DNA from: an uncultured Candidatus Saccharibacteria bacterium
GTDB lineage: Bacteria; Patescibacteriota; Doudnabacteria; UBA920
Direction: 5' to 3'
DNA: 64,000 bases
Assembly: GCA_964532425.1 (NCBI GenBank)
Contig: CAZHIA010000002.1
Span: 13,945 to 77,944, forward strand
The notes beneath the pieces are model-generated. The model had not been told where the DNA came from, did no database searches, and was given only the letters and a program-made list of their open reading frames with translations. The position numbers and the translations under genes are program-made. Positions 9,897 to 32,809 of the stretch are shown one piece after another (positions within the stretch are counted from its first letter, which is position 1; each line of letters opens with the position of its first letter).

Positions 9897-10499
9897 TTAG
9901 TTGCCCCCAACACAAAGAGTATAATTAGAATTCCAATGCCAACTGGCATTGGCACCAGTATATTTGCCCAAACAATAATTTACTAATGGCCCCAACTCAT
10001 ACCCGCCTGGATAAATGCCGTTAGGATTTGAGAATCTGGAAACATTGGAGTTATCCTCAAAAGCAGAAACCCCAACACCATAATACTGACCATTGCTCGT
10101 GGAAGGATTGTTGTAATAATAGTAACGATTGCTGTCATTGACCGGATCCTTGGGCATCTGGCTCATATATGGCTTGAGGGTATCAGCTAGCCAGCACCAG
10201 CGGTTGCACCAGCCGCATCCAGCCTGGGCAGCCACCACCGCCCCACCGTTAACAACAGGTCCGCCGCACGTGCCCGACCAATCCACGCTGTATGCATCGT
10301 CTGAAAGAGGATAGGTGCCATTATGGTCAGCCGCGTACAATTCCAGAGCCTTCGAGATTTGAGTAATATCCGTTGCACGCTTGGCATCACGGGCTTTCAC
10401 ACGGGCGCTGTTTAAAGCCACCATGACGGTACTCGCAAGTAAACCGATGATGGATATAACCACGAGCAGCTCGATGAGTGTAAAACCCTTTTGGCTCAT
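9897..10499 (-). CDS. type IV pilin (prepilin-type N-terminal cleavage/methylation domain)
   Basis: MSQKGFTLIELLVVISIIGLLA class III signal; Cys pairs in C-terminal part. Confidence 0.8.
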   Translation of the reverse strand: MSQKGFTLIELLVVISIIGLLASTVMVALNSARVKARDAKRATDITQISKALELYAADHNGTYPLSDDAYSVDWSGTCGGPVVNGGAVVAAQAGCGWCNRWCWLADTLKPYMSQMPKDPVNDSNRYYYYNNPSTSNGQYYGVGVSAFEDNSNVSRFSNPNGIYPGGYELGPLVNYCLGKYTGANASWHWNSNYTLCVGGN

Positions 10500-16871: not shown

Positions 16872-17123
16872 ATGTCCGAGCAGGAACGGCTGACGTTCCT
16901 GGCTTCTAAAGACCTGCTTTCCATTAGTGAAGCAGCCAAGTTGACCCCGTATTCAGGGGAATATTTAAGTCTTTTAGCCAGAAATGGACGATTGCCGGCC
17001 ATTAAGATCGCAAGAAATTGGCTTACTACGCGTAAGGCCGTTTTGTCGTACCTGCAGGAACAACAACAAAAGCACCAGAATATTGTCGAACAACTCAGAC
17101 AGCTGCAGGAGGAGGTTATATGA
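16872..17123 (+). CDS. excisionase-family helix-turn-helix DNA-binding protein
   Basis: [47 protein letters not shown] resembles HTH_17/excisionase-type DNA-binding domain; stop overlaps next start (ATGA). Confidence 0.55.
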
Positions 17124-20100
17124 AGACCAAATTCCTGTTTGCTTGGATGTGCGGCACGCTGGTTCTCGCCGAACTCTTAGTGTCTTTCAGGGCCGCTCAA
17201 GATCAGCTCGTTACGTTTATTCCCCATGCGGTACACCGGGCGGTGCCGACCATTTTCCAAGATGCATCAAACTTTGTCTCCTTTTCCGAACGGATGGCTG
17301 GAGAAAAAAACCGGTTGTTGGTACAATTAGGATTTACGATTGAAAATGATCTGCAACATACCGGCCTCATAGCCAAATCTTTCCGTAACGATTCGGTTGA
17401 ACCATACCGCGCCATGGCAAATGCCATTCAAACCGGAATTCGGAAGCAAGCAAAAGACATAGAGTATGCTACCAGGTATGGCACGATTACCCTTAAAATG
17501 TGGAAGAGCTTCTTAGCCTGGGAAAACCAAGCAGTGGTAACTGCGGGCAACTGGGCATCATCAGATCTTAGGACTGACATTACGGCGCCATATCAAACCG
17601 GAGCTGTAGCAATCAGGCAAGGGTTATACGAACAGTCCCGGCAGGTTGGTAGGTTCTGGCAGGGAATAGTAGAAAACGCCGGTTCAATCGACATTGCAGT
17701 CAATGGCTTAGGGGAGCAACCGAATTTACCGCAACGGCTTGTTGCTACTAACGTTTTTCATCTCAAAAAACAAACTGAGGCCACAAATTCAACCCCTCAA
17801 CTTTCCCTTAACGCTCAAAACGGAAAAGTCCTTGCAGCCAAAACTTCGACAAACACGAATACTGGCAAACCAGTAGCACAACCTACATACCAGCCGGGCG
17901 ATACCATGGCTATGGTCAACCAGCGATTGGATGAATACACCCAATTCTTAGCTAGCTTTGGGTATGGGGTGAATGGGAATAATGGGTCGAATGGGGTGAA
18001 TACGACCAATCAGGCATCGGGAAATCAAACCACGGTCATCAACAATGTTCCGCTCGTTACCTATGTCCCGTCCAACCAATCGCAGAACTTCTCTGGTGGC
18101 TCCCTGGCCGGCTTTACCCAGCTTGGGGCAGACGGGTTGACCGTTTCCACCGCCAGAATCAACTCCAGTTTAAATCTTTCAGGCCCGGCCACACTCTCAT
18201 CACTGACGGTGAGTGGTTTGTCCTCTCTTGCTACAACTACGGTCACCGGCACCCTGACTGCAGAACATTTTGTCGGCGACGGAAGCGGCCTAACCGGCTT
18301 ACCCAGTGGTTCGCAATGGACCACCAGCGGAAGCGATATTTATTACAACAGCGGGAATGTCAGTATCGGAACAACTACACCGACTGCAAAATTCCAGGTT
18401 GATGGGACCTCTTATCTTGGATCTAATGCATCACAAGTTGCTAGTTATTTATCCGGTTGGGCCACAGCTGAAGCGTTCGTATACGGTCACACTAGCGGTA
18501 CCGATACCAGCTGGTACGAACGAAACGGTTTATATGTAGTAGAAGAAGATCATTCAGTGGATTCAAACACCCCTTATGTATATGGGGCCACCATTCAAGG
18601 AAACGGATATGGAACCGGTGATTATTCGGAAATTGCAGGTTTAAAAGTGTGGGGAACCGTAAACAACTCCACGACAATGTCCAATCAATATAGCAGTTTA
18701 TACGGGATTCAGACTTTTGGTGGAGCATATGACGATTCATCGGTTCAAAACGCTTATGGAGTTTGGTCAACCGGCGTCTACAACGGCAATTCAAATGTGA
18801 ATAACTTGTACGCCATATATTCCAGAAGGGCCGGCTATAGTCCCGGAGGCAAAGTAAATAACAGTTACGGAGTTTATATACAAAATCCAGTAGGGGGTGC
18901 TACTGGTAATAATTATGGATTGTTTTTGGATAACATGTCGGCCGGCACATCGACAAATTTTTCTATATATTCCGCTGGAGGTACCAGTTATTTTGCCGGC
19001 AGCATAGGAGTCGGCACAACTTCTCCTGTCGCGAGTTTGACAATAAAAGGAAGTGGTGGAACAAATCCGTTTGTGATTGCGTCATCGGCCGGGTCGACTT
19101 TATTAGCAGTTACACAGTCCGGCAACGTTGGTATAAACACTTCAACCCCGGCTTTCAAATTGGATGTTAATGGCATAATAAATGCTACTGCCCTGTACGT
19201 GAATGGCTCGCCTTACATTGGCAGCCAGTGGGCCACGAACGGATCGAGTGTCTACTACAATGGCGGCAATGTTGGCATTGGGACGACAACGCCGCAAGCC
19301 AAGCTCGAAGTTGACGCTACCGTAACCCCGACAGGAAGCGAGCTGGTGAGTAACGGTTCGTTCACCGGTGGAACTGCAGGGTGGACGCTTGGGTCCAATG
19401 TCAGTTATGGCACGAATAATGTCGTGAGCACCTACGCTGGCGGTGACCCATCGTTAAGTACGAATTTTAATACGGAAGCTGGTAAAACTTATTTGCTTAC
19501 CTTTACTGTTTCCAATGCCAACGCGAATTCATATTTGTATTTCTACTTGGACAACAACCGGCTTTCTTATAATTCGGGCCAAGTCTCGAATCAGACGTAT
19601 AGCGTGGCTTTTAAAACCGACTTTACCGGAACCGAAACAATACATTTTGACCAATGGAATTACACGAATGGGGAGACGTGGACTTTAGATAATGTATCCA
19701 TTAAGGAAATAAATCCCACAAAACCCTCTCTGCTCGTTAAAAATTATAATGGTGAGACGGTTCTTTCCGCTGGCGGGGATTTATATGGGAATACCGTATT
19801 CGGATCAGCTGCACTGAGCTCAAACACCACCGGTGGTAATAATCTCGCCTTAGGCAATAGAGCATTATTGTCCAATACGTCCGGCTGGGAAAATATAGCG
19901 TTAGGTGCGAATGCTTTATTCGCAAATACAACAGGAACGCATAACATTGCTGTTGGTCCGGCGCTGGCTAGCAACACGACAGGTGATGACAATTATGCGT
20001 TTGGAATCGGTTCCATGGCTAATAACACGAGCGGCAGCGCTAATATTGCCTTGGGACACATGACGCTTAACAGCAATCAAACAGGAAGTTTTAACATAGC

Positions 20101-23100
20101 TGTCGGAGCGGGTTCTTTATGGGATATGACTGGTGGTACCAATGTAACAGGGATTATAACCGGAACCGCGTGGGGACGGTCAGCTTATCCTTTTCCGTCA
20201 ATTTTCCGCGGAACACAAAAACAACTTGACAGTTCAGTACTTATTGGGCCACGAGCAACAACCGGTGTCAACAGCGATTCCGCATCTATGCTTACAAATG
20301 TTGTGGCGATAAACGGTATGGCCACACAGAGCAACCAGGTCGTCATCGGCAATAGCGCTACTCAGCAAATGATATTGTATGGCAATGTCGGGATTGGGAC
20401 CACTACCCCTTCCGCGACTTTGCATATAGAGGGAGCTCAGCCGCAGATTTTATCCAAAGCCACGGACCCGGCACAATCAGCTTCCTGGTCCCTGACAACT
20501 CCCGGCAACAACGTCTCATTCACGGCATACCAATATGGCAGCAGTTATGTCGGTACGTATTTGGGATTGAACGCTACCGGAGTTTCGGTACTTCGCGCCG
20601 CAGGCGGATCGGCAGGCATGGTCATCAACGAAGAATCCAACGCACCTATTTTGTTCGGCACCAGCAACCACGAACAAATGCGCATCGAGGGCGGCGGCAA
20701 TGTAGGCATTGGTATTACCGTACCCCAGGCCAAACTGCATGTATCCGGAGGCAATGTCCTGTTTGAAACCGGTAATGTCAGCATTGGCACCACCACAACA
20801 CCCAGCAAATTATTAGTCCAAGGAGCAACCGTTGACCCCACCGCTCCAGTCTTGAGCGTACTGAACCATTCAGCTGCAAATGTATTGACTGTGCTCGATA
20901 GTGGTAATATCGGTATTGGCACCACCACTCCTTCCCAGCTTTTGACGGTAGGCAATAATAACCAATTTACTGTGAGTACCACTGGTGCTGTAACCGGGCT
21001 TAGCTTTACGGATGTAAATGGTTCGCAAATGGGCGGCGGTGTATTAAATGTAGCCGGAGGAGGCAACGCGACTTATATTAATTCTTCCGGCATCAGTTTG
21101 CAGACCGGCAGCAGTATGAGGATTTTATGGAACGGCCAAAGCGTGGGATTGTCGAGCGGCGCGTCAGGAAAGCTTTATGTTGGTAACGGGACTATTGGTG
21201 ATTATTCGGGAACTTTAATCGCCGGCAACGTCGGCATCGGGACGACATCACCATCACAATTACTTGCGGTGGGAAATAATAATCAGGTCACGGTAGATTC
21301 GAATGGCTTGATTACAATGACAAAACCGAGCAGCGCTTTACCCGCAACGTATTTATATTTTAAAGTGCCAGGTTCCGCGGATTGGGGCGTATCGTTGGGC
21401 GCTGAAACTATTCCGAATTGGTATTTTGGTAGAGCGTCTACCCGCCAGACATCGGACTATTTTTGGAGAGCTAACTGGAATACCGCAGGCGTTGCGGTGA
21501 ACACATTCCAGAATGCGGATTCGGGTAACGGCTACGGTGGGGCTGCACTGACTACTATGAATATTCAAGGCATAACAAATCAGACGGGGGATTTGTTTGC
21601 AATTAGCACTTCCAGCTCGAGCCCAATGGGTAATTTGTTTAAGGTCCAGCAAAACGGGAATGTCGGGATTGGGACGACGAGTCCTATTGTAAAATTAGAT
21701 GTCTGGGGAAATTTGAATGTTGCAACGTCTTCCACATCGACTTTGTATGTAGATGCGGGCACAGGCAGGGTGGGGATTGGGAAGAATAATCCGAGCTATG
21801 CACTGGATGTAACGGGTCCAATACGTTCGACCAGTAATATTTACGGCGGCTGGGCAATGCTCCAACGCTTAGTCGATTCTGACAATAATTCTTATTACGT
21901 TAACCCCGACGCCAACGGCAGTGGATTTTCCGCAGTTTTAGCCGGCAACGTCGGCATTGGCACCACCACACCTAACCAAACTTTGGAAGTTGTTGGTAGT
22001 TTCGGGATTAGCAATGGGAGTAACAATACCAGGGTTGTCATGACTCCGGTATTCGCCAACACGTTGCAATTCAGTTATGGCGGTACGGGGGCTAACATTG
22101 GCAGCCTTACCAATGGTTCCTACTTATTGTTAGGTCCATCGGGCAGCACTACCACTCCGGTATACGCCTTTACCAATGACGCCAATACCGGCATTGGCAC
22201 TGCAGGGAACAGCAGTGACACCATCAGTTTAATTACCGCTGGCTCCAGCAGGGTATTTATTGATGCTCTTGGGAATGTCGGCATCGGGACGACGACACCA
22301 AAGGCAACACTGCATGTGGAGGGATCGCTAAATATAAACAACGGATCAATTACGCACACGACAAGCACCAATTTGACCACTATTGATTATTTACAGGTCG
22401 GGGCGAGCGGGTTTGAGACAGACGCCGGCATGGTGACATGGACAGATATGCCGGTGACGGCAAGCTCTGCCACTACCACGATTTTAAGCTACACCGCTTC
22501 TATGAACGGCGCGCCAGTGTTAACGGTGTATGCCAACGGCGACGGTGCGGGCGGCATCCAGAATGCGGCGGTCGGCATCGGCACCACTACGCCAACCTTA
22601 GGACCCTTAACGGTCAGTAACGGCGCTTATGTTACTGCCGGCGGAACCTGGACCAACTCTTCTGATAGGAATAAGAAAGAGAACTTTACCGATGTAGACC
22701 CGTTCGAGGTCCTGCAAAAAATCAACTTGCTTAGCATTCAACAGTGGAACTACAAGAACGAAACCGCTTCCACTACGCACATCGGCCCGGTCGCACAGGA
22801 CTTTTACGATAAGTTCCACCTGGGCGGCAGCGACCTTTCGATTTCCACTATCGACCCTGCCGGTGTGGCACTCTTAGGCATGCAGGGCTTTAGCAAAATT
22901 TTTGGATTGCAAGGCAACTTAAACGGCAGTTTATCATCCACCACCCCCATAACTATCACCCGCCAAGTTAACTTTGCTGGCGACACCGTGGGTGAGGCTA
23001 AAATTTTAGCCGGCGCAACCTCAGTCAGAGTGAATTTTGACCAGCCGTACGAGTATCAGCCAATTGTTACCCTAACACCTTTGGACTTCGTTGACGGCGC

Positions 23101-23536
23101 ATACCGCGTGACCGCAGCAGATGCCAGTGGCTTTACCATTGAGCTGCAGAAAATCCAAAGCATAGATGCCTCATTTAACTGGCATGCATTCGGCGGCAAA
23201 GGTACGCAGCTAACCGTATCCAACGGCAGCAAATCGAAAATAATTTTGGTGCCTGCAGGCAAAGGCCAAGTCGGCCAAACCAATCCCGCACTTACTGTAA
23301 CAACCGGAAACGGTTCCCCGCAGCCGACTACTACCACAACCGAAAACGAGAATAAAGGCACGGTAGCCGGCGCAAACACCGGAACTGAAGAACAACCGGC
23401 AACCGGAATTACGGAACCTGCAGCGAAGACTGATGGCACCATCACGACTCCGGAGCCGGCAGGAACCTCAACTCCTGACACCGGCACACAGGAAACTGCC
23501 AGCCCGGAAACCCCGACTGGGACGGCGGGGGAATAG
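17120..23536 (+). CDS. giant membrane-anchored fibre protein: tail-fibre-like G-I-G-T-T-T-P repeats, CBM-like module, Hep_Hag-like repeats, C-terminal Peptidase_S74-like intramolecular chaperone domain, Thr/Pro/Glu-rich tail
   Basis: GGAGGAGG SD; N-terminal TM helix; about 14 copies of GNVGIGTT(T/S)PxAKLxV; [12 protein letters not shown] module; SDRNKKENF...[10 protein letters not shown] near C-terminus. Confidence 0.85.
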
Positions 23537-23593
23537 GACTGGTAGGATGAATGGGTGAGATGAGTCCAATAGGGTAGATAAGAATAATAAGAT

Positions 23594-23670
23594 CTATAGG
23601 ATTGATAATTAATATAGGATGAATAGGAAGTATAGGATGTATAGGTCCTATCAAACCTATTTATCTTATA
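23594..23670. repeat. TAGGAT-word repeat tract (7-8-bp periodic)
   Basis: tataggattgataattaatataggatgaataggaagtataggatgtataggtcctat; 14-mer ATAGGATGAATAGG repeated at 24315-24328. Confidence 0.6.
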
Positions 23671-23676
23671 AAGCCT

Positions 23677-24309
23677 ATGGGTGGTTATAGGGATTTAAAA
23701 TCTTTCCAAGGAACGGAGATTATTTTTGATTTGACTGTGGAATTTTTATCCCGCTATATAAAAAATAACCGCAAGCTTTGGGAACAGATGGAAGGAGCCG
23801 CACGGAGCGGCAAGCAAAATTTAGCTGAAGGTTCAAAATACATGAACACTTCCCGCGCCTCTGAAATCAGGTTGATTGAGGTTAACCGTGGCAGCTTGGA
23901 AGAACTCTTGCTTGACTACGAAGATTGTCTGCGCAAGAATCATTTACCCATTTGGAGCATGCAGGACCACCGCGTGACCAAAATCAGGAAACTAGCTTAT
24001 GCTCCCAATAAGTCCTATAAAACCTATTTATCCTATTTGGAAAATCTAGAAACAGCTGCCAATTGTTTAATTACCATCATCAATCAAACTAACTATCTCT
24101 TAGACCGGCAAATGAGAAGCCTGAAAACCGATGTAATTGAAAAGGGCGACATGAGGGAAAGACTGTCACAAGAACGCAATGCATTTAAGAAAACTCAACT
24201 AGCCAACCCCGGACCATCGCTCGACGAATTTCTAAAAGGGTTCGGAATGAAACGTTTAGAAAACGGCCAAGTGATAAAAATTGAGGAATATGATTCAAAG
24301 AAACAATAA
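23677..24309 (+). CDS. four-helix-bundle protein (23S rRNA intervening-sequence protein family), extended C-terminus
   Basis: YRDLKSFQ...QNLAEGSKY...RLIEVNRGSLEEL pattern; paralog at 39760. Confidence 0.5.
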   Translation: MGGYRDLKSFQGTEIIFDLTVEFLSRYIKNNRKLWEQMEGAARSGKQNLAEGSKYMNTSRASEIRLIEVNRGSLEELLLDYEDCLRKNHLPIWSMQDHRVTKIRKLAYAPNKSYKTYLSYLENLETAANCLITIINQTNYLLDRQMRSLKTDVIEKGDMRERLSQERNAFKKTQLANPGPSLDEFLKGFGMKRLENGQVIKIEEYDSKKQ

Positions 24310-24319
24310 GACAAATAGG

Positions 24320-26452
24320 ATGAATAGGTCAGATATGACCAATAAGACCTATAGGACGTATAAGACCTTTATTGCTGCAATGATTGCGGCTGTTTTTCTG
24401 CTGCCCGGTTTTTCTGCCCAGGCTGCAATGATAAAAAAACAGCCGAATAATTTGGGACTGAAAGCTTATTGGAATTTTGACGAAGGCAAGGGGATAAAGG
24501 CTGGGGATTTTAGCGGGAATGGCAACAAAGGAACCCTATCCAACACCACCTGGACTAATGGCAAGCACGGCAAGGCTTTAAATTTTAACGGCAGCAACAG
24601 CGCCATGTCAGTTGCCAGCTACACTAACATGAGCCCAGGCGCCAACAACTTTTCTATAGCTTTTTGGATCAAAACTTCGGGCTATGGCGATTTAATTATA
24701 GGTGCGGACGGCAATGCGGGCACCACGCTGCAAGGCTACGGCCTGGCTATTCCTTTCGGCTGGGGCTGTGCCACACCCGGCCAGCTGTATTTTAATTTTT
24801 CTAATGGCGCTGCACGCGAAGTAGGTTTTTGTTCCAGCAGTATCATTAACGATGGTGGCTGGCATCATGTTTCTATAACTGTCACCCGCGGCGATAAAGT
24901 AAAATTTTACATAGACGGCAACTTGGACAACTCCTTAAACACTACCTTAAACGGTTCCGTACTCCTCCACCATTTCAGCATAGGACAAATTGCCTGGCAA
25001 GGCTGGCTGAACGGATTAATGGATGATATCCGCCTTTATAACCGCGCGTTGTCCGCAAGCGAGGCACTCACCTTATATCAAAGCGGCCAGGAAACCATAG
25101 GTGGCAACCAGGCTGGCCGCGGGACAGACGGTTTAGTAGGGTATTGGTCATTGAATGCCAGTGATGTTTCAGGATCGTCAGCAACCGATGCCAGCGGCAA
25201 AGGCAGAACCTTAACACTATTTAACGGTCCTGCAGCAGCCACTGGACGGTTTGGGCAGGCTTTGTCTTTTAACGGCAGTACGCAGTACGCCAGCACGAGC
25301 AATGCTTTTTCCGAAATCGGCGTGAGCAACCAGGCTTACACGGTTTCAGCCTGGGTCAAAATAGCGCAGGGCAAAACCCAGGGCGATATAATTCATACTT
25401 CCAGTTTGTCAAACGGTTCAGGCTGGTGTTTGGCGCCGCTTAAAATCAACGGCTCAAAAATTGAAACCACCAGCTGGAGTTCCGGTGATGTTACAATTTC
25501 CGGTAATACCACTTTAAAAGCCGATGCTTGGTATTTTTTGGCCGCCACCTGGTCTGCTTCCGGCGGACTACGCGCCTATGTTAATGGAAATTTAGATGCC
25601 TCGACAACTCAGAACACTTATACCGCCAGCGGAGTATCTAATTATATATTTTTGGGCGGGCACGGCGGAGGCTGCGCTTCTGACCGCGGCTATTTTACCG
25701 GAACTATAGATGAACCGCGGGTTTATAGTCGCGCTTTATCACAAACCGAATTAACCGCGCTTTATAATCTTGGCAAAAAAACCGAGAACACCTCACCAAC
25801 ATCGCGCTTAAATGACGGACTCATTGGCTACTGGAACTTTAACGGCGCGAATATGACGGACACACTTGCTTTAGACTCATCCGGTAACGGTTATACCGCC
25901 ACTCTTGCCGGTAACACCGCCAAAGCCATCGGCAAAATAGGGCAAGGGTTATATTTTGACGGCAGCGGCGATTACGTGGCAGTACCTTATACGGCGGCTT
26001 TGGCGCCTGCAAGCGCCATCAGTTATGGCGCTTGGTTTAAATCCTCCGATGTTTCCGCCAATACGCGCATTATTTCCAAAACCGAATTTGGCGGGTTTAA
26101 CCTAGGGCTCAACGACACGGTTTCCGGCATATCCGCCACCGTCAATACAACAAACGGGGGTTATCATTATGTAAATTACCCATCGCCGCAAAACAATCGC
26201 TGGTACCACGCGTTTGTCACCTATGACGGCAGCAATGTGAGTCTGTATGTGGATGGGCAGCTAGCCAGCAGCACGCCAGCTACCGGATTAGCCAACTTCA
26301 CCCGCACCAACCCTTTATGCATCGGGTCAGAACCCAATTCAACAGCGTGCACGTACGGCAACTATTTGACGGGCTTAATTGATGAAGTGCGCATTTATAA
26401 CCGCGCTCTGGCACCGGCTGAGGTTAAACAATTATACATAATGGGAAAATAG
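24320..26452 (+). CDS. secreted protein with three tandem LamG-like (concanavalin A-like lectin) domains
   Basis: Signal peptide ...AAVFLLPGFSAQA; three repeats each ending D(D/E)(I/V/P)R(L/I/V)YNRAL(S/A)..E(L/V)..LY; start ambiguous (24290/24320/24335). Confidence 0.7.
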   Translation: MNRSDMTNKTYRTYKTFIAAMIAAVFLLPGFSAQAAMIKKQPNNLGLKAYWNFDEGKGIKAGDFSGNGNKGTLSNTTWTNGKHGKALNFNGSNSAMSVASYTNMSPGANNFSIAFWIKTSGYGDLIIGADGNAGTTLQGYGLAIPFGWGCATPGQLYFNFSNGAAREVGFCSSSIINDGGWHHVSITVTRGDKVKFYIDGNLDNSLNTTLNGSVLLHHFSIGQIAWQGWLNGLMDDIRLYNRALSASEALTLYQSGQETIGGNQAGRGTDGLVGYWSLNASDVSGSSATDASGKGRTLTLFNGPAAATGRFGQALSFNGSTQYASTSNAFSEIGVSNQAYTVSAWVKIAQGKTQGDIIHTSSLSNGSGWCLAPLKINGSKIETTSWSSGDVTISGNTTLKADAWYFLAATWSASGGLRAYVNGNLDASTTQNTYTASGVSNYIFLGGHGGGCASDRGYFTGTIDEPRVYSRALSQTELTALYNLGKKTENTSPTSRLNDGLIGYWNFNGANMTDTLALDSSGNGYTATLAGNTAKAIGKIGQGLYFDGSGDYVAVPYTAALAPASAISYGAWFKSSDVSANTRIISKTEFGGFNLGLNDTVSGISATVNTTNGGYHYVNYPSPQNNRWYHAFVTYDGSNVSLYVDGQLASSTPATGLANFTRTNPLCIGSEPNSTACTYGNYLTGLIDEVRIYNRALAPAEVKQLYIMGK

Positions 26453-32733: not shown

Positions 32734-32809
32734 GGGCGTATAGCTCAGTTGGTAGAGCGGACGTCTTATACACGTCTGGTCCTAGGTTCGAGTCCTAGTA
32801 CGCCCACCA
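32734..32809 (+). tRNA. tRNA with anticodon TAT (tRNA-Ile UAU, AUA-decoding), CCA encoded
   Basis: GGGCGTATAGCTCAGTTGGTAGAGCGGACGTCTTATACACGTCTGGTCCTAGGTTCGAGTCCTAGTACGCCCACCA; anticodon loop CTTATAC. Confidence 0.8.

What the first reader, a model, noticed from the sequence alone, without database searches (positions are those of the whole stretch)
22640..23536. C-terminal Peptidase_S74-like self-cleaving intramolecular chaperone domain followed by a Thr/Pro/Glu-rich low-complexity tail
Seen in sequence: ...[58 protein letters not shown]... (S-D-R at nt 22661-22669).

From memory: the endosialidase/tail-spike C-terminal intramolecular chaperone domain (Peptidase_S74) carries a conserved Ser-Lys dyad in an S-D-x-R-x-K-x-N-I context, followed by a ...(H)IG(F/P)iAQE... 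block. Here Ser and Lys(+5) and the HIGPVAQD block are all present. That domain folds the trimeric fibre and then autoproteolytically releases itself.

In this protein the domain is followed by about 180 more residues, ending in a [12 protein letters not shown]...[29 protein letters not shown] tail. This is unusual: in phage proteins the CIMCD is normally at the extreme C-terminus.

Inference: the released C-terminal fragment (S74 domain plus T/P/E tail) may itself have a function, or the tail may be a glycosylated linker.
Basis: partly seen in the sequence, partly recalled or inferred. Interest (0 to 1): 0.65.

Follow-up and report, generated by a model that had tools for sequence, protein, structure and literature searches.

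The report
Self-cleaving fibre cap plus lectin-like knob
The end of a giant surface-fibre protein of an ultra-small (Patescibacteria) bacterium carries a genuine phage-type self-cleaving folding domain followed by a conserved lectin-like knob and an acidic floppy tail, a three-part ending that recurs in thousands of uncharacterised bacterial proteins but was not found in the phage collections searched.

Summary
ORF 17120-23536 (+) encodes 2138 aa. It has a Peptidase_S74 hit above Pfam's threshold starting exactly at Ser1848 (nt 22661), with Lys1853 at +5 and the HIGPVAQD block. The dyad aligns with solved S74 domains.

The gene is not from a phage: it lies among rpsA, gyrA, infB and tRNAs of a Ca. 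Doudnabacteria-like genome, and the protein has an N-terminal hydrophobic anchor.

The roughly 205 residues after the S74 domain are not just a tail. They contain a conserved β-sandwich (aa ~1953-2045) with an H-type-lectin / tailspike-tip fold, followed by a 93-aa acidic Thr/Pro/Glu/Gly tail.

The β-domain matches 3035 clusters at 50% identity, always near the C-terminus of proteins up to 5397 aa. Of 164 members examined, 129 carry an S74 domain upstream and 149 a tail of at least 40 aa. All 121 scorable members keep Ser-x4-Lys. No relative turned up in the phage collections.

Best reading: a trimeric cell-surface fibre like the Bdellovibrio MAT fibres. Its C-terminal cassette nucleates trimerisation, then cuts itself off before Ser1848 as a ~30 kDa fragment. 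Cleavage and the role of the knob are inferred, not shown.

This is a new variant of a known kind, of moderate interest.

The parts
17120..23536 (+). Gene for a 2138-aa (221 kDa) giant surface-fibre protein, stop codon included
   Evidence: ORF list. It is the only S74 / β-domain gene in the window's six-frame translation. Rich in G/T/S/N, with a single Cys.
17120..17188 (+). N-terminal hydrophobic signal peptide or signal anchor (aa 1-23, [23 protein letters not shown])
   Evidence: The best 19-residue Kyte-Doolittle window starts at aa 5 with a mean of 1.97. Among full-length family members, 69 of 82 have such a segment within the first 220 aa.
18998..22660 (+). Fibre shaft with nine spaced copies of the G-[NS]-[VI]-G-[IV]-[GN]-T motif, mostly GNVGIGTT[TS]P, at aa 627-1718, plus [15 protein letters not shown] just before the S74 domain
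   Evidence: Motif scan. PHROG 9942 'tail fiber protein' hit at aa 1676-1810, E 2e-12. In the family profile this motif aligns with the stalk of MyRF (7dc3) and, weakly, with Bdellovibrio MAT fibre structures 8oml/8ol4/8ojn/8on4. It resembles the V-G-G/N-π-x-x-P-x-x-x-L capping loop described in PMC10769870.
22661..22918 (+). Peptidase_S74 intramolecular chaperone / autocleavage (ICA) domain, aa 1848-1933. Ser1848 = nt 22661-22663, Lys1853 = nt 22676-22678, HIGPVAQD = nt 22778-22801. Predicted scissile bond Ser1847|Ser1848 (nt 22660|22661).
   Evidence: Pfam PF13884, 41 bits against a gathering score of 22. The dyad aligns with solved S74 domains. The cut N-terminal to the Ser is inferred from T5 pb1 Thr1263|Ser1264 (PMC4690869) and from 3gud starting at SDERHK. 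A helix is predicted at aa ~1913-1931, at low confidence.
22919..22975 (+). Ser/Thr-rich linker (aa 1934-1952, [19 protein letters not shown])
   Evidence: Variable in length and sequence across the family alignment. pLDDT below 50.
22976..23254 (+). Conserved post-S74 β-sandwich with an H-type-lectin / tailspike-tip-like fold (aa 1953-2045: [13 protein letters not shown]...SGFTIEL...FNWHAFG...[17 protein letters not shown])
   Evidence: Invariant columns D, V-G, S, F, Y, P, G-F, F-x-W-x-x-F, V-S. Sub-threshold Pfam H_lectin hits in 12 of 19 members. The AF2 core has pLDDT 82-93. Top Foldseek hits are Helix pomatia agglutinin, cyanophage Pam1 tailspike, SLL-2, R2 pyocin fibre and Sf6 tailspike, and phage tail-fibre C-termini in BFVD. 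The family profile matches 3035 clusters at 50% identity at E<=1e-3.
23255..23533 (+). Acidic, Lys/Arg-poor Thr/Gly/Pro/Glu/Ala-rich disordered tail (aa 2046-2138, pI 4.1)
   Evidence: Composition and pI. pLDDT below 50. Of 164 family members, 149 have a tail of at least 40 aa with the same kind of composition (P 15.6, S 14.7, T 12.7, A 11.8, E 9.8 %; K+R 0.8 %), and I saw no shared motif among their C-terminal ends.

Best explanation
The gene encodes a trimeric, phage-tail-fibre-like surface fibre of a Patescibacteria (Ca. Doudnabacteria-like) cell. The fibre is held at, or exported through, the membrane by its N-terminal hydrophobic segment, so the C-terminus is the distal end and the last part to emerge.

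The final 291 residues form a conserved three-part cassette:
- an ~86-aa S74 intramolecular chaperone / autocleavage domain with an intact Ser1848/Lys1853 dyad;
- an ~93-aa β-sandwich with an H-type-lectin fold, a fold that is trimeric in its known members;
- an acidic disordered tail.

Proposed mechanism (inferred). Outside the cell, where there is no ATP or general chaperone, the lectin-like domain and the S74 helix bring three chains into register at their C-termini. The fibre then zips up from C to N, as in phage fibres. Once the trimer has formed, the S74 dyad cuts the Ser1847|Ser1848 bond. This leaves the mature fibre (aa ~24-1847) on the cell and discards or sheds a trimeric ~30 kDa fragment (S74 + knob + tail). 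On this reading the tail keeps the late-emerging end soluble and charge-repelled; it is not a linker.

Shown: domain identities, dyad conservation, cassette recurrence, cellular context. Inferred: trimerisation, cleavage, direction of folding, fate of the fragment.
For: All 121 scorable family members that combine S74 with the β-domain keep Ser-x4-Lys, and 101 keep SDxxxK (the 20 non-SDxxxK sequences printed there were checked by eye). This argues that catalysis is retained even though the domain is internal.

In cellular fibres S74 does cleave: Bdellovibrio Bd3182 cuts at S782 and S782A blocks it (PMC10769870). An internal ICA also cleaves in MyRF (PMC3742443, PMC8326128).

The cassette behaves as a constant module. 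The β-domain follows several divergent S74 subtypes and very different shafts, for example a pectate-lyase-like β-helix in L005. It is the best conserved segment: mean pairwise identity is 47%, against 33% for S74 and 24% for the 120 aa upstream (the set was selected with the β-domain profile, so this is biased). That pattern is the opposite of what a hypervariable receptor-binding tip would show.

The H-type lectin fold is supported. In ETEC CofB the same fold acts as a trimeric assembly initiator and does not bind GalNAc (PMC6048534). N-terminal hydrophobic segments occur in 69 of 82 full-length members. The genes sit in housekeeping neighbourhoods and occur in several copies per genome. Tails are near-universal, acidic and almost free of K/R.
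Against: No cleavage, trimerisation or localisation data exist for any member. The AF2 monomer model of the S74 part is poor (pLDDT 35-69), and no trimer model could be made.

The stalk Arg that helps catalysis in endoNF (Arg897) and T5 pb1 (Arg1250) has no counterpart: there is no Arg or Lys in the 60 aa upstream of Ser1848. MyRF, however, does without stalk residues (PMC8326128).

Discarding an extra folded domain and a 90-230-aa tail is costly for a reduced genome, which hints that the fragment has a function of its own. The fold's nearest structural neighbours are receptor-binding tips. The conservation comparison is biased by how the set was collected.
Confidence: 0.5

Rival explanations
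1. The lectin-like knob is the working adhesin tip. Either the S74 domain serves only as a trimerisation clamp and does not cut here, or it cuts but the fragment stays non-covalently attached as a cap. The fibre would then present a trimeric carbohydrate- or peptide-binding knob to the host cell on which the epibiont lives.
For: The best structural matches are lectins and distal receptor-binding domains: HPA, SLL-2, Pam1 tailspike RBD, R2 pyocin fibre, Sf6 tailspike C-terminus, and tail-fibre C-termini in BFVD. Bdellovibrio NS74 MAT fibres end in lectin-type tips (PMC10769870). H-lectin domains occur on eCIS fibres (PMC12923769). The conserved W-H aligns with HPA Trp83-His84 in hhalign. A downstream neighbour is another secreted lectin-fold (3x LamG) protein.
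Against: The dyad is kept in 121 of 121 members, so cleavage appears to be selected. In the phage and MyRF precedents the two products separate (PMC4690869, PMC8326128). The knob is strongly conserved across Saccharibacteria, Doudnabacteria and Acidobacteriota, unlike host-specific tips. The hhalign match to HPA has only 18% probability and places the GalNAc ligands Asp26 and Arg63 in deletions (the residue roles are from my memory of the HPA structure). A tip would not normally be followed by a 90-230-aa disordered tail.
Confidence: 0.25
2. Programmed shedding or release, as in MyRF. The point of the internal S74 is to separate two functional products. The cut would liberate a soluble trimeric lectin-like protein with a mucin-like acidic tail (a secreted effector, decoy or matrix component). 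Alternatively, the C-terminal cassette holds the fibre on the cell's own envelope until cleavage releases it.
For: MyRF shows that an internal ICA can act as a release switch (PMC3742443). The fragment is a conserved, folded, sizeable unit of 30.4 kDa and pI 4.7, and its conservation exceeds that of the S74 domain itself. About a third of the S74 relatives lacking this β-domain also carry 154-399 aa after the Ser, so material after S74 is common in cellular proteins.
Against: There is no anchor motif, hydrophobic segment or positive charge in the tails. The membrane anchor is N-terminal in most members, so C-terminal retention is unlikely. No ligand or activity is known for the fragment, and no experimental data exist.
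Confidence: 0.15
3. Prophage or phage-derived tail-fibre gene. On this reading the C-terminal extension is an idiosyncratic, possibly degenerate appendage.
For: There is an S74 domain, a PHROG tail-fibre hit, and NCBI names relatives 'tail fiber domain-containing protein'.
Against: Among the window genes scanned, none matched a phage structural or replication family. The neighbours are rpsA, gyrA, infB, HtrA, a pilin and tRNAs. The protein has an N-terminal hydrophobic export or anchor segment. Homologous loci sit between IMPDH and GMP synthase. The β-domain has no relative in 50,697 phage records or in the IMG/VR pattern scan. The extension is conserved in thousands of clusters.
Confidence: 0.03

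Closest known systems
Bdellovibrio bacteriovorus MAT (mosaic adhesive trimer) fibres (Caulton et al. 2024, PMC10769870)
   Same: Both are cell-encoded, exported, roughly 1000-aa-plus trimeric fibres of phage-fibre type carried by a bacterium that lives on other bacteria. Both have repeated V-G-x-x-x-x-P-x-x-x-L-type loops, occur in several paralogues per genome, and have an S74 domain with SDxxxK near the C-terminus. The family profile weakly hits MAT structures 8oml/8ol4/8ojn/8on4.
   Different: MATs end either in S74 (13 of them) or in a lectin-type tip that replaces S74 (8 of them). Here S74 and a lectin-fold domain are in tandem and are followed by an acidic tail. MATs share a ~130-aa β-rich N-terminal domain that I did not look for here. 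The phylum and envelope type also differ.
Phage C-terminal intramolecular chaperone domains (K1F endoNF, T5 pb1, GA-1 gp12, S16 gp37; MEROPS S74 / Pfam PF13884)
   Same: Same Pfam family, same Ser-x4-Lys dyad and G-x-[IV]-A-Q-[ED] block. Both follow a trimeric fibre or β-helix.
   Different: The phage domains span about 113-155 aa from the Ser to the stop (PMC4690869), and some have long β-hairpin 'tentacles'. Here the S74 part is only ~86 aa and is followed by 205 more residues. No stalk Arg is present. The host protein is cellular and N-terminally anchored.
MyRF / MrfA intramolecular chaperone autocleavage (ICA) domain
   Same: It is the best solved-structure match to the family profile (7dc3, E 2.7e-7), and the match includes the G-x-V-G-I-x-T-x-x-P loop before the Ser. 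The ICA is internal, and catalysis does not need stalk residues (PMC8326128).
   Different: In MyRF the ICA is followed by a transmembrane helix and a lumenal domain, and cleavage frees an N-terminal transcription factor. Here the membrane segment is N-terminal and what follows the ICA is a soluble β-sandwich plus a tail.
H-type lectin domains (Helix pomatia agglutinin, discoidin, SLL-2; CofB minor pilin tip, PMC6048534)
   Same: The fold is the top Foldseek PDB match, and 12 of 19 members give sub-threshold Pfam H_lectin hits. The domain sits at the distal end of a bacterial filament. In CofB the fold acts as a trimeric assembly initiator.
   Different: The hits are below Pfam's gathering score. 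TM-scores are only 0.40-0.46 to HPA. The GalNAc-binding residues Asp26 and Arg63 apparently have no counterpart (low confidence). No trimer or ligand has been shown.

Membership tests
Peptidase_S74 / CIMCD / ICA domain (Pfam PF13884) | Profile match above the curated gathering score | tested here: met
   41 bits on the whole protein and 44.3 bits on the C-terminal fragment, against a gathering score of 22; E 2.4e-10; aa 1848-1896 = profile positions 1-50 of 58.
Peptidase_S74 / CIMCD / ICA domain (Pfam PF13884) | Catalytic Ser and Lys at +5 (S-D-x-x-x-K) in register with the dyad of solved members | tested here: met
   S1848-D-R-N-K-K1853. The family profile aligns it with SDERHK (3gud, first residue of the released domain), SDRRIK (6f45) and the S587/K592 position of MyRF 7dc3. 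The dyad is kept in 121 of 121 family members.
Peptidase_S74 / CIMCD / ICA domain (Pfam PF13884) | Conserved G-x-[IV]-A-Q-[ED] block about 40 residues after the Ser | tested here: met
   HIGPVAQD at aa 1887-1894. G, A and Q are invariant in the family alignment.
Peptidase_S74 / CIMCD / ICA domain (Pfam PF13884) | C-terminal helix forming a trimeric coiled coil that drives trimerisation | tested here: inconclusive
   A helix is predicted at aa ~1913-1931 ([21 protein letters not shown]), but the monomer model has pLDDT 35-45 there. No trimer prediction was possible.
Peptidase_S74 / CIMCD / ICA domain (Pfam PF13884) | Stalk Arg from a neighbouring chain stabilising the oxyanion (endoNF Arg897, T5 Arg1250) | tested here: not met
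   There is no Arg or Lys in the 60 aa upstream of Ser1848. This is not a universal feature: MyRF uses no stalk residues (PMC8326128).
Peptidase_S74 / CIMCD / ICA domain (Pfam PF13884) | Autoproteolysis at the Ser after trimer formation | not testable with these tools
   This needs expression of wild type against S1848A/K1853A, or proteomics.
Phage-type terminal CIMCD (domain ends the protein) | Roughly 110-155 aa from the catalytic Ser to the stop codon | tested here: not met
   There are 291 aa from Ser1848 to the end. In phage Mwe-JY25 the distance is ~113 aa, and in T5 pb1 it is 133 aa (PMC4690869).
H-type lectin (Pfam PF09458) | Profile match above the gathering score | tested here: not met
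   13.9-15.7 bits against a gathering score of 24 for the window protein. Of 19 relatives, 12 hit below threshold (best E 1.4e-4). A further relative reaches 22.2 bits.
H-type lectin (Pfam PF09458) | Six-stranded antiparallel β-sandwich fold of HPA / discoidin | tested here: inconclusive
H-type lectin (Pfam PF09458) | GalNAc-binding residues at the trimer interface (HPA Asp26, Arg63, Tyr89, Trp83/His84; residue list from memory) | tested here: inconclusive
   In hhalign of the family against HPA (probability 18%), the conserved W-H aligns with Trp83-His84, but Asp26 and Arg63 fall in deletions.
Bdellovibrio MAT fibre superfamily | Exported trimeric β-helical fibre with V-G-G/N-π-x-x-P-x-x-x-L capping loops | tested here: inconclusive
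   There are nine [14 protein letters not shown] motifs. Profile hits to MAT structures 8oml/8ol4/8ojn/8on4 are weak, at E 0.015-0.075. Trimerisation was not testable.
Bdellovibrio MAT fibre superfamily | Conserved ~130-aa β-rich domain right after the signal peptide | not tested
   The N-terminal hydrophobic segment was confirmed, but the following domain was not compared with MAT proteins.
Bdellovibrio MAT fibre superfamily | C-terminus is either S74 or an alternative tip domain | tested here: not met
   Both are present in tandem, with an added tail.

The most novel reading that the evidence does not exclude
The S74 / lectin-fold / acidic-tail cassette is a dedicated extracellular, energy-independent assembly and shedding device of giant surface proteins in Patescibacteria and some Acidobacteriota. 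The lectin-fold domain nucleates the trimer. The S74 dyad then releases it, so that every fibre built also sheds one soluble trimeric lectin-like particle with a mucin-like tail. That particle would have its own role, such as coating or conditioning the host-cell surface, acting as a decoy, or building matrix. This would be a bacterial counterpart of the two-product logic of MyRF.
Probability: 0.15. Interest if true: 0.6.

Novelty: new variant of a known kind. Interest (0 to 1): 0.4.

Why it matters
Patescibacteria make up a large share of uncultured bacterial diversity, and the cultivated members live attached to other microbes. How they build their surface apparatus and recognise hosts is largely unknown. 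I found no paper linking S74 fibres to this group.

If the reading is right, these cells use phage-style self-processing fibres, as Bdellovibrio does, but with an extra conserved module that no Pfam, NCBIfam or PHROG model describes. A profile for this module would annotate the C-terminus of thousands of giant 'hypothetical' proteins. It would also give a simple, testable handle: one Ser-to-Ala mutant and one ~30 kDa fragment.

In itself, though, the S74 hit is a routine annotation, and the function of the extra module is still conjecture.

Tried and rejected
- A single-sequence PDB search of the C-terminal 338 aa returned only spurious antibody heavy-chain hits driven by the S/T/P-rich part. 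I replaced it with profile searches.
- The β-domain profile had no significant sequence match in the PDB (best E 0.27).
- NCBIfam gave nothing for the giant protein. PHROGs gave nothing for the β-domain plus tail.
- No exact copy of the 2138-aa product is on record.
- The IMG/VR pattern scan found no relative of the β-domain. INPHARED tblastn matched only the S74 part, in two Microcystis phages.
- Apparent stand-alone β-domain genes (P0040, P0057) are artefacts. P0040 comes from an in-frame TGA at LQG*LTGN in L012. P0057 comes from a frameshift in an A-run in L013, where the continuous reading matches P0205.
- I rejected the idea that the module is a sorting signal or cell-wall anchor. The tails have no hydrophobic stretch, almost no K/R, and no shared end motif that I could see.
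- I had judged by eye that other post-S74 extensions looked like T9SS C-terminal domains (P0048/51/58) or an FGE-sulfatase-like domain (P0022). Neither Pfam nor NCBIfam confirmed this, so I do not rely on it.
- The whole-fragment AF2 model (mean pLDDT 54) was too poor in the S74 part to use.
Full report
**1.
Window 22640-23536 (+) translates to the quoted peptide and ends at a stop codon. Nucleotides 22661-22687 read SDRNKKENF. The stretch is the C-terminus of one long ORF, 17120-23536 (+), 2138 aa and 221 kDa.

Pfam's Peptidase_S74 model (PF13884) matches aa 1848-1896 at 41 bits, against a gathering score of 22, with E 2.4e-10. Profile position 1 falls on Ser1848. Lys1853 is at +5, and HIGPVAQD lies at aa 1887-1894.

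A profile of the family aligns this S-D-x-x-x-K with three solved S74 domains:
- SDERHK at the very first residue of the released GA-1 chaperone (3gud);
- SDRRIK of phage S16 gp37 (6f45);
- the Ser587/Lys592 position of the MyRF ICA domain (7dc3, E 2.7e-7).

The tail is also as described: the last 78 aa contain T24, G11, P9, E9 and A8.

**2. The gene is cellular, not phage.**
Among the window genes scanned, none matched a phage structural or replication family. The neighbours are:
- ribosomal protein S1, GyrA and an HtrA-type protease;
- IF-2, a DHH phosphoesterase, a type IV pilin-like protein and an M28 peptidase;
- seven tRNAs.

GyrA is 100% identical to a protein on a 310-kb NCBI contig. 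It is 84-86% identical to sequences named Ca. Doudnabacteria or Patescibacteria group bacterium.

The protein starts with a hydrophobic segment (aa 5-23). Among full-length relatives, 69 of 82 have such a segment within the first 220 aa. The shaft carries nine spaced GNVGIGTT[TS]P-type motifs. These align with the stalk loop before the MyRF ICA and, weakly, with Bdellovibrio MAT fibre structures. They resemble the V-G-G/N-π-x-x-P-x-x-x-L capping loop reported for S74 fibres (PMC10769870).

**3. What follows the S74 domain.**
Homologues show more (alignment A1):
- The S74 part is short, about 86 aa, and ends in a predicted helix ([11 protein letters not shown]......LQG).
- It is followed by a variable Ser/Thr linker.
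- Next comes a well-conserved ~93-aa domain: F-[SA]-G-D-[ST][28 protein letters not shown] ... [ST]-G-F-T-I ... F-[DN]-W-H-[SA]-F ... L-T-V-S-[DN]-G.
- Only then does the low-complexity tail begin.

Evidence on the fold of the conserved domain:
- Twelve of 19 members give sub-threshold Pfam H_lectin hits (best E 1.4e-4). The window protein reaches 15.7 bits against a gathering score of 24.
- An AF2 model of the domain is confident in its core (pLDDT 82-93).
- Its best PDB matches are Helix pomatia and Helix aspersa agglutinins, the coral H-type lectin SLL-2, the cyanophage Pam1 tailspike receptor-binding domain (28% identity, rmsd 2.4 Å), the R2 pyocin fibre and the Sf6 tailspike C-terminal domain.
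- In the viral structure library it matches C-termini of tail fibres and 'H-type lectin domain' proteins.

The fold is therefore the H-type-lectin / fibre-tip β-sandwich. Formal Pfam membership is not met.

A low-confidence hhalign to HPA (18% probability) puts the conserved W-H on HPA Trp83-His84. It places the GalNAc ligands Asp26 and Arg63 in deletions (the HPA sequence was verified; the residue roles are from memory). Sugar binding is thus unproven.

**4. The cassette is common and modular.**
- A profile of the β-domain finds 3035 clusters at 50% identity at E<=1e-3, 783 at <=1e-10 and 98 at <=1e-30. Among the 150 listed, the proteins reach 5397 aa and the domain always lies near the C-terminus.
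- Of the 164 members in hand, 129 have an S74-type domain upstream, with a median of 96 aa from the start of S74 to the start of the β-domain. The median tail after the β-domain is 91 aa.
- Of the 164, 149 have a tail of at least 40 aa with a shared composition: P 15.6, S 14.7, T 12.7, A 11.8, E 9.8 %, and K+R only 0.8 %. I saw no shared motif among their C-terminal ends.
- The β-domain follows several divergent S74 subtypes. In a minority of members it follows other, unannotated modules or coiled coils.
- Apparent stand-alone β-domain genes are artefacts of an in-frame TGA and a frameshift.

Genome loci with the cassette come from Saccharibacteria, Doudnabacteria and unclassified Patescibacteria, with two to three copies in single MAGs. 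They also come from Acidobacteriota (Bryobacterales, Terracidiphilus). There the gene sits between ordinary genes such as IMPDH and GMP synthase, and the shafts differ; one contains a pectate-lyase-like β-helix.

No relative of the β-domain was found in 50,697 phage records or in the IMG/VR pattern scan. The one phage S74 I looked at ends its protein about 113 aa after the start of the match.

Among S74 relatives without this β-domain, 27 of 42 have 65-141 aa from the Ser to the end, and 15 have 154-399 aa.

**5. How it most likely works.**
Established knowledge:
- S74 domains trimerise, template the upstream fibre, and then cut immediately N-terminal to the catalytic Ser using a Ser/Lys(+5) dyad. 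This is shown for T5 pb1, with the Thr1263|Ser1264 bond and a 133-aa chaperone (PMC4690869), for endoNF, and for MyRF (PMC3742443, PMC8326128).
- A cellular fibre, Bdellovibrio Bd3182, does the same (PMC10769870).

In the present family every one of 121 scorable members keeps Ser-x4-Lys, and 101 keep SDxxxK. I therefore infer that cleavage is retained. In this protein it would separate a ~190 kDa fibre (to Ser1847) from a 291-aa fragment of 30.4 kDa and pI 4.7.

The β-domain is the most conserved segment of these proteins: 47% mean pairwise identity, against 33% for S74 and 24% for the preceding 120 aa. The caveat is that the set was chosen with the β-domain profile. The β-domain is also combined with many different shafts. 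That pattern fits a constant assembly module better than a host-specific tip.

H-type lectin folds are trimeric in the known cases. In the ETEC minor pilin CofB the fold serves as a trimeric assembly initiator and does not bind GalNAc (PMC6048534).

My preferred model is therefore as follows. The knob and the S74 helix nucleate the trimer at the last-exported end of three N-terminally anchored chains. The fibre folds from C to N. The cassette then removes itself. The K/R-free acidic tail acts as a solubilising, non-sticky end.

I give the whole model a confidence of about 0.5. The domain assignments and the cellular-fibre context are close to certain. Cleavage is likely. The role of the knob and tail is the weakest step.

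**6. Rivals.**
(a) The knob is the functional adhesin tip, either uncleaved or retained as a cap. This is supported by the nature of its structural neighbours and by MAT and eCIS precedents (PMC10769870, PMC12923769). It is weakened by the universally conserved dyad, the high conservation of the knob, and the trailing tail.

(b) MyRF-like two-product logic, in which the shed trimeric fragment has its own role. This is attractive because discarding about 200 conserved residues seems costly, but there is no evidence for any activity.

(c) A prophage tail fibre. This is effectively excluded by the context and the N-terminal anchor.

Glycosylation of the tail itself remains untested.

**7. Comparison with known systems, and novelty.**
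The closest known system is the Bdellovibrio MAT fibre family. There, fibres end either in S74 or in a lectin-type tip that substitutes for it (PMC10769870). Here the two are fused in series and capped by an acidic tail.

The closest solved relative of the S74 part is the MyRF ICA. MyRF shares the internal position but has the opposite membrane topology.

I found no paper linking S74 fibres, or this cassette, to Patescibacteria. No Pfam, NCBIfam or PHROG model covers the β-domain.

I rate this a new variant of a known kind. It is a routine S74 annotation on a MAT-like cellular fibre, plus an undescribed, very widespread post-S74 module whose function is open. Interest is moderate, at 0.4.

Noticed in passing
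window 23533-23650 and 24305-24368: There are clusters of ATAGGA-type short repeats (TATAGGATG x3.7; an 18-nt unit AATAAGACAAATAGGACG x3.4) on both sides of the 'four helix bundle protein' gene (23677-24309; TIGR04258 suffix domain). Six of the 16 plus-strand ATAGGA copies in the 64 kb lie in these two stretches (four within ~100 nt, two in the second), plus one at 23646 on the other strand. The second array encodes the K/N/T/R-rich N-terminus of the next ORF. Its meaning is unknown.
   Followed up: partly
window 24281-26452 (+): The gene immediately downstream encodes a 723-aa exported protein with three Laminin_G_3 / concanavalin-like lectin domains (E 4e-78) and a partial match to the TafC fimbrial family. 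It is a second surface lectin-fold protein next to the fibre gene.
   Followed up: partly
L001 6326-10693 and L005 5516-10720 (homologous fibre genes): Some family members begin with a cytoplasmic helix-turn-helix (HTH_17-like, E 5.6e-4) followed by a transmembrane segment and then the extracellular fibre. Thirteen of 82 full-length members have this N-terminus. A DNA-binding-type domain on the inner end of an S74 fibre recalls MyRF, but here S74 cleavage could not release it.
   Followed up: partly
proteins P0114, P0150, P0188, P0190, P0196, P0201 (relatives): In about ten representatives the β-domain is preceded by a different conserved module rather than by S74 (…ALAGR[VI]PVKV..ENG.I..GDYL.SS..G.AMKA…G.ALE…), sometimes with a long coiled coil. 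Pfam has no model for it. It could be another kind of C-terminal folding module.
   Followed up: partly
L012 3240-3290: An in-frame TGA interrupts a homologous cassette exactly at a conserved position (LQG*LTGNAT...). It could be a sequencing error, a pseudogene, or a lineage that reads UGA as Gly (code 25).
   Followed up: partly
proteins P0014-P0017, P0022, P0025, P0030, P0037, P0048, P0051, P0058: Close relatives of this S74 domain carry other, unannotated extensions of 150-400 aa after it. One group has a small Cys-containing domain plus a Pro/Thr/Glu/Ala-rich tail. My by-eye impression of T9SS-CTD-like and FGE-sulfatase-like ends was not confirmed by Pfam or NCBIfam.
   Followed up: partly
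L005 5516-10720 and 11907-12857: The Terracidiphilus homologue has a pectate-lyase / rhamnogalacturonase-like β-helix in its shaft (E 3.2e-5), like a phage depolymerase tailspike. A tyrosine integrase gene lies about 1.2 kb downstream.
   Followed up: no
window 32734-32809 (+): A tRNA-Ile with anticodon TAT is predicted. Most bacteria decode AUA with a modified CAT-anticodon tRNA instead.
   Followed up: no
window 9897-10499 (-): This is a type IV pilin-like gene (N-terminal methylation motif, T2SSG-like) in the same neighbourhood. It fits the pilus-rich surface expected of Patescibacteria.
   Followed up: no
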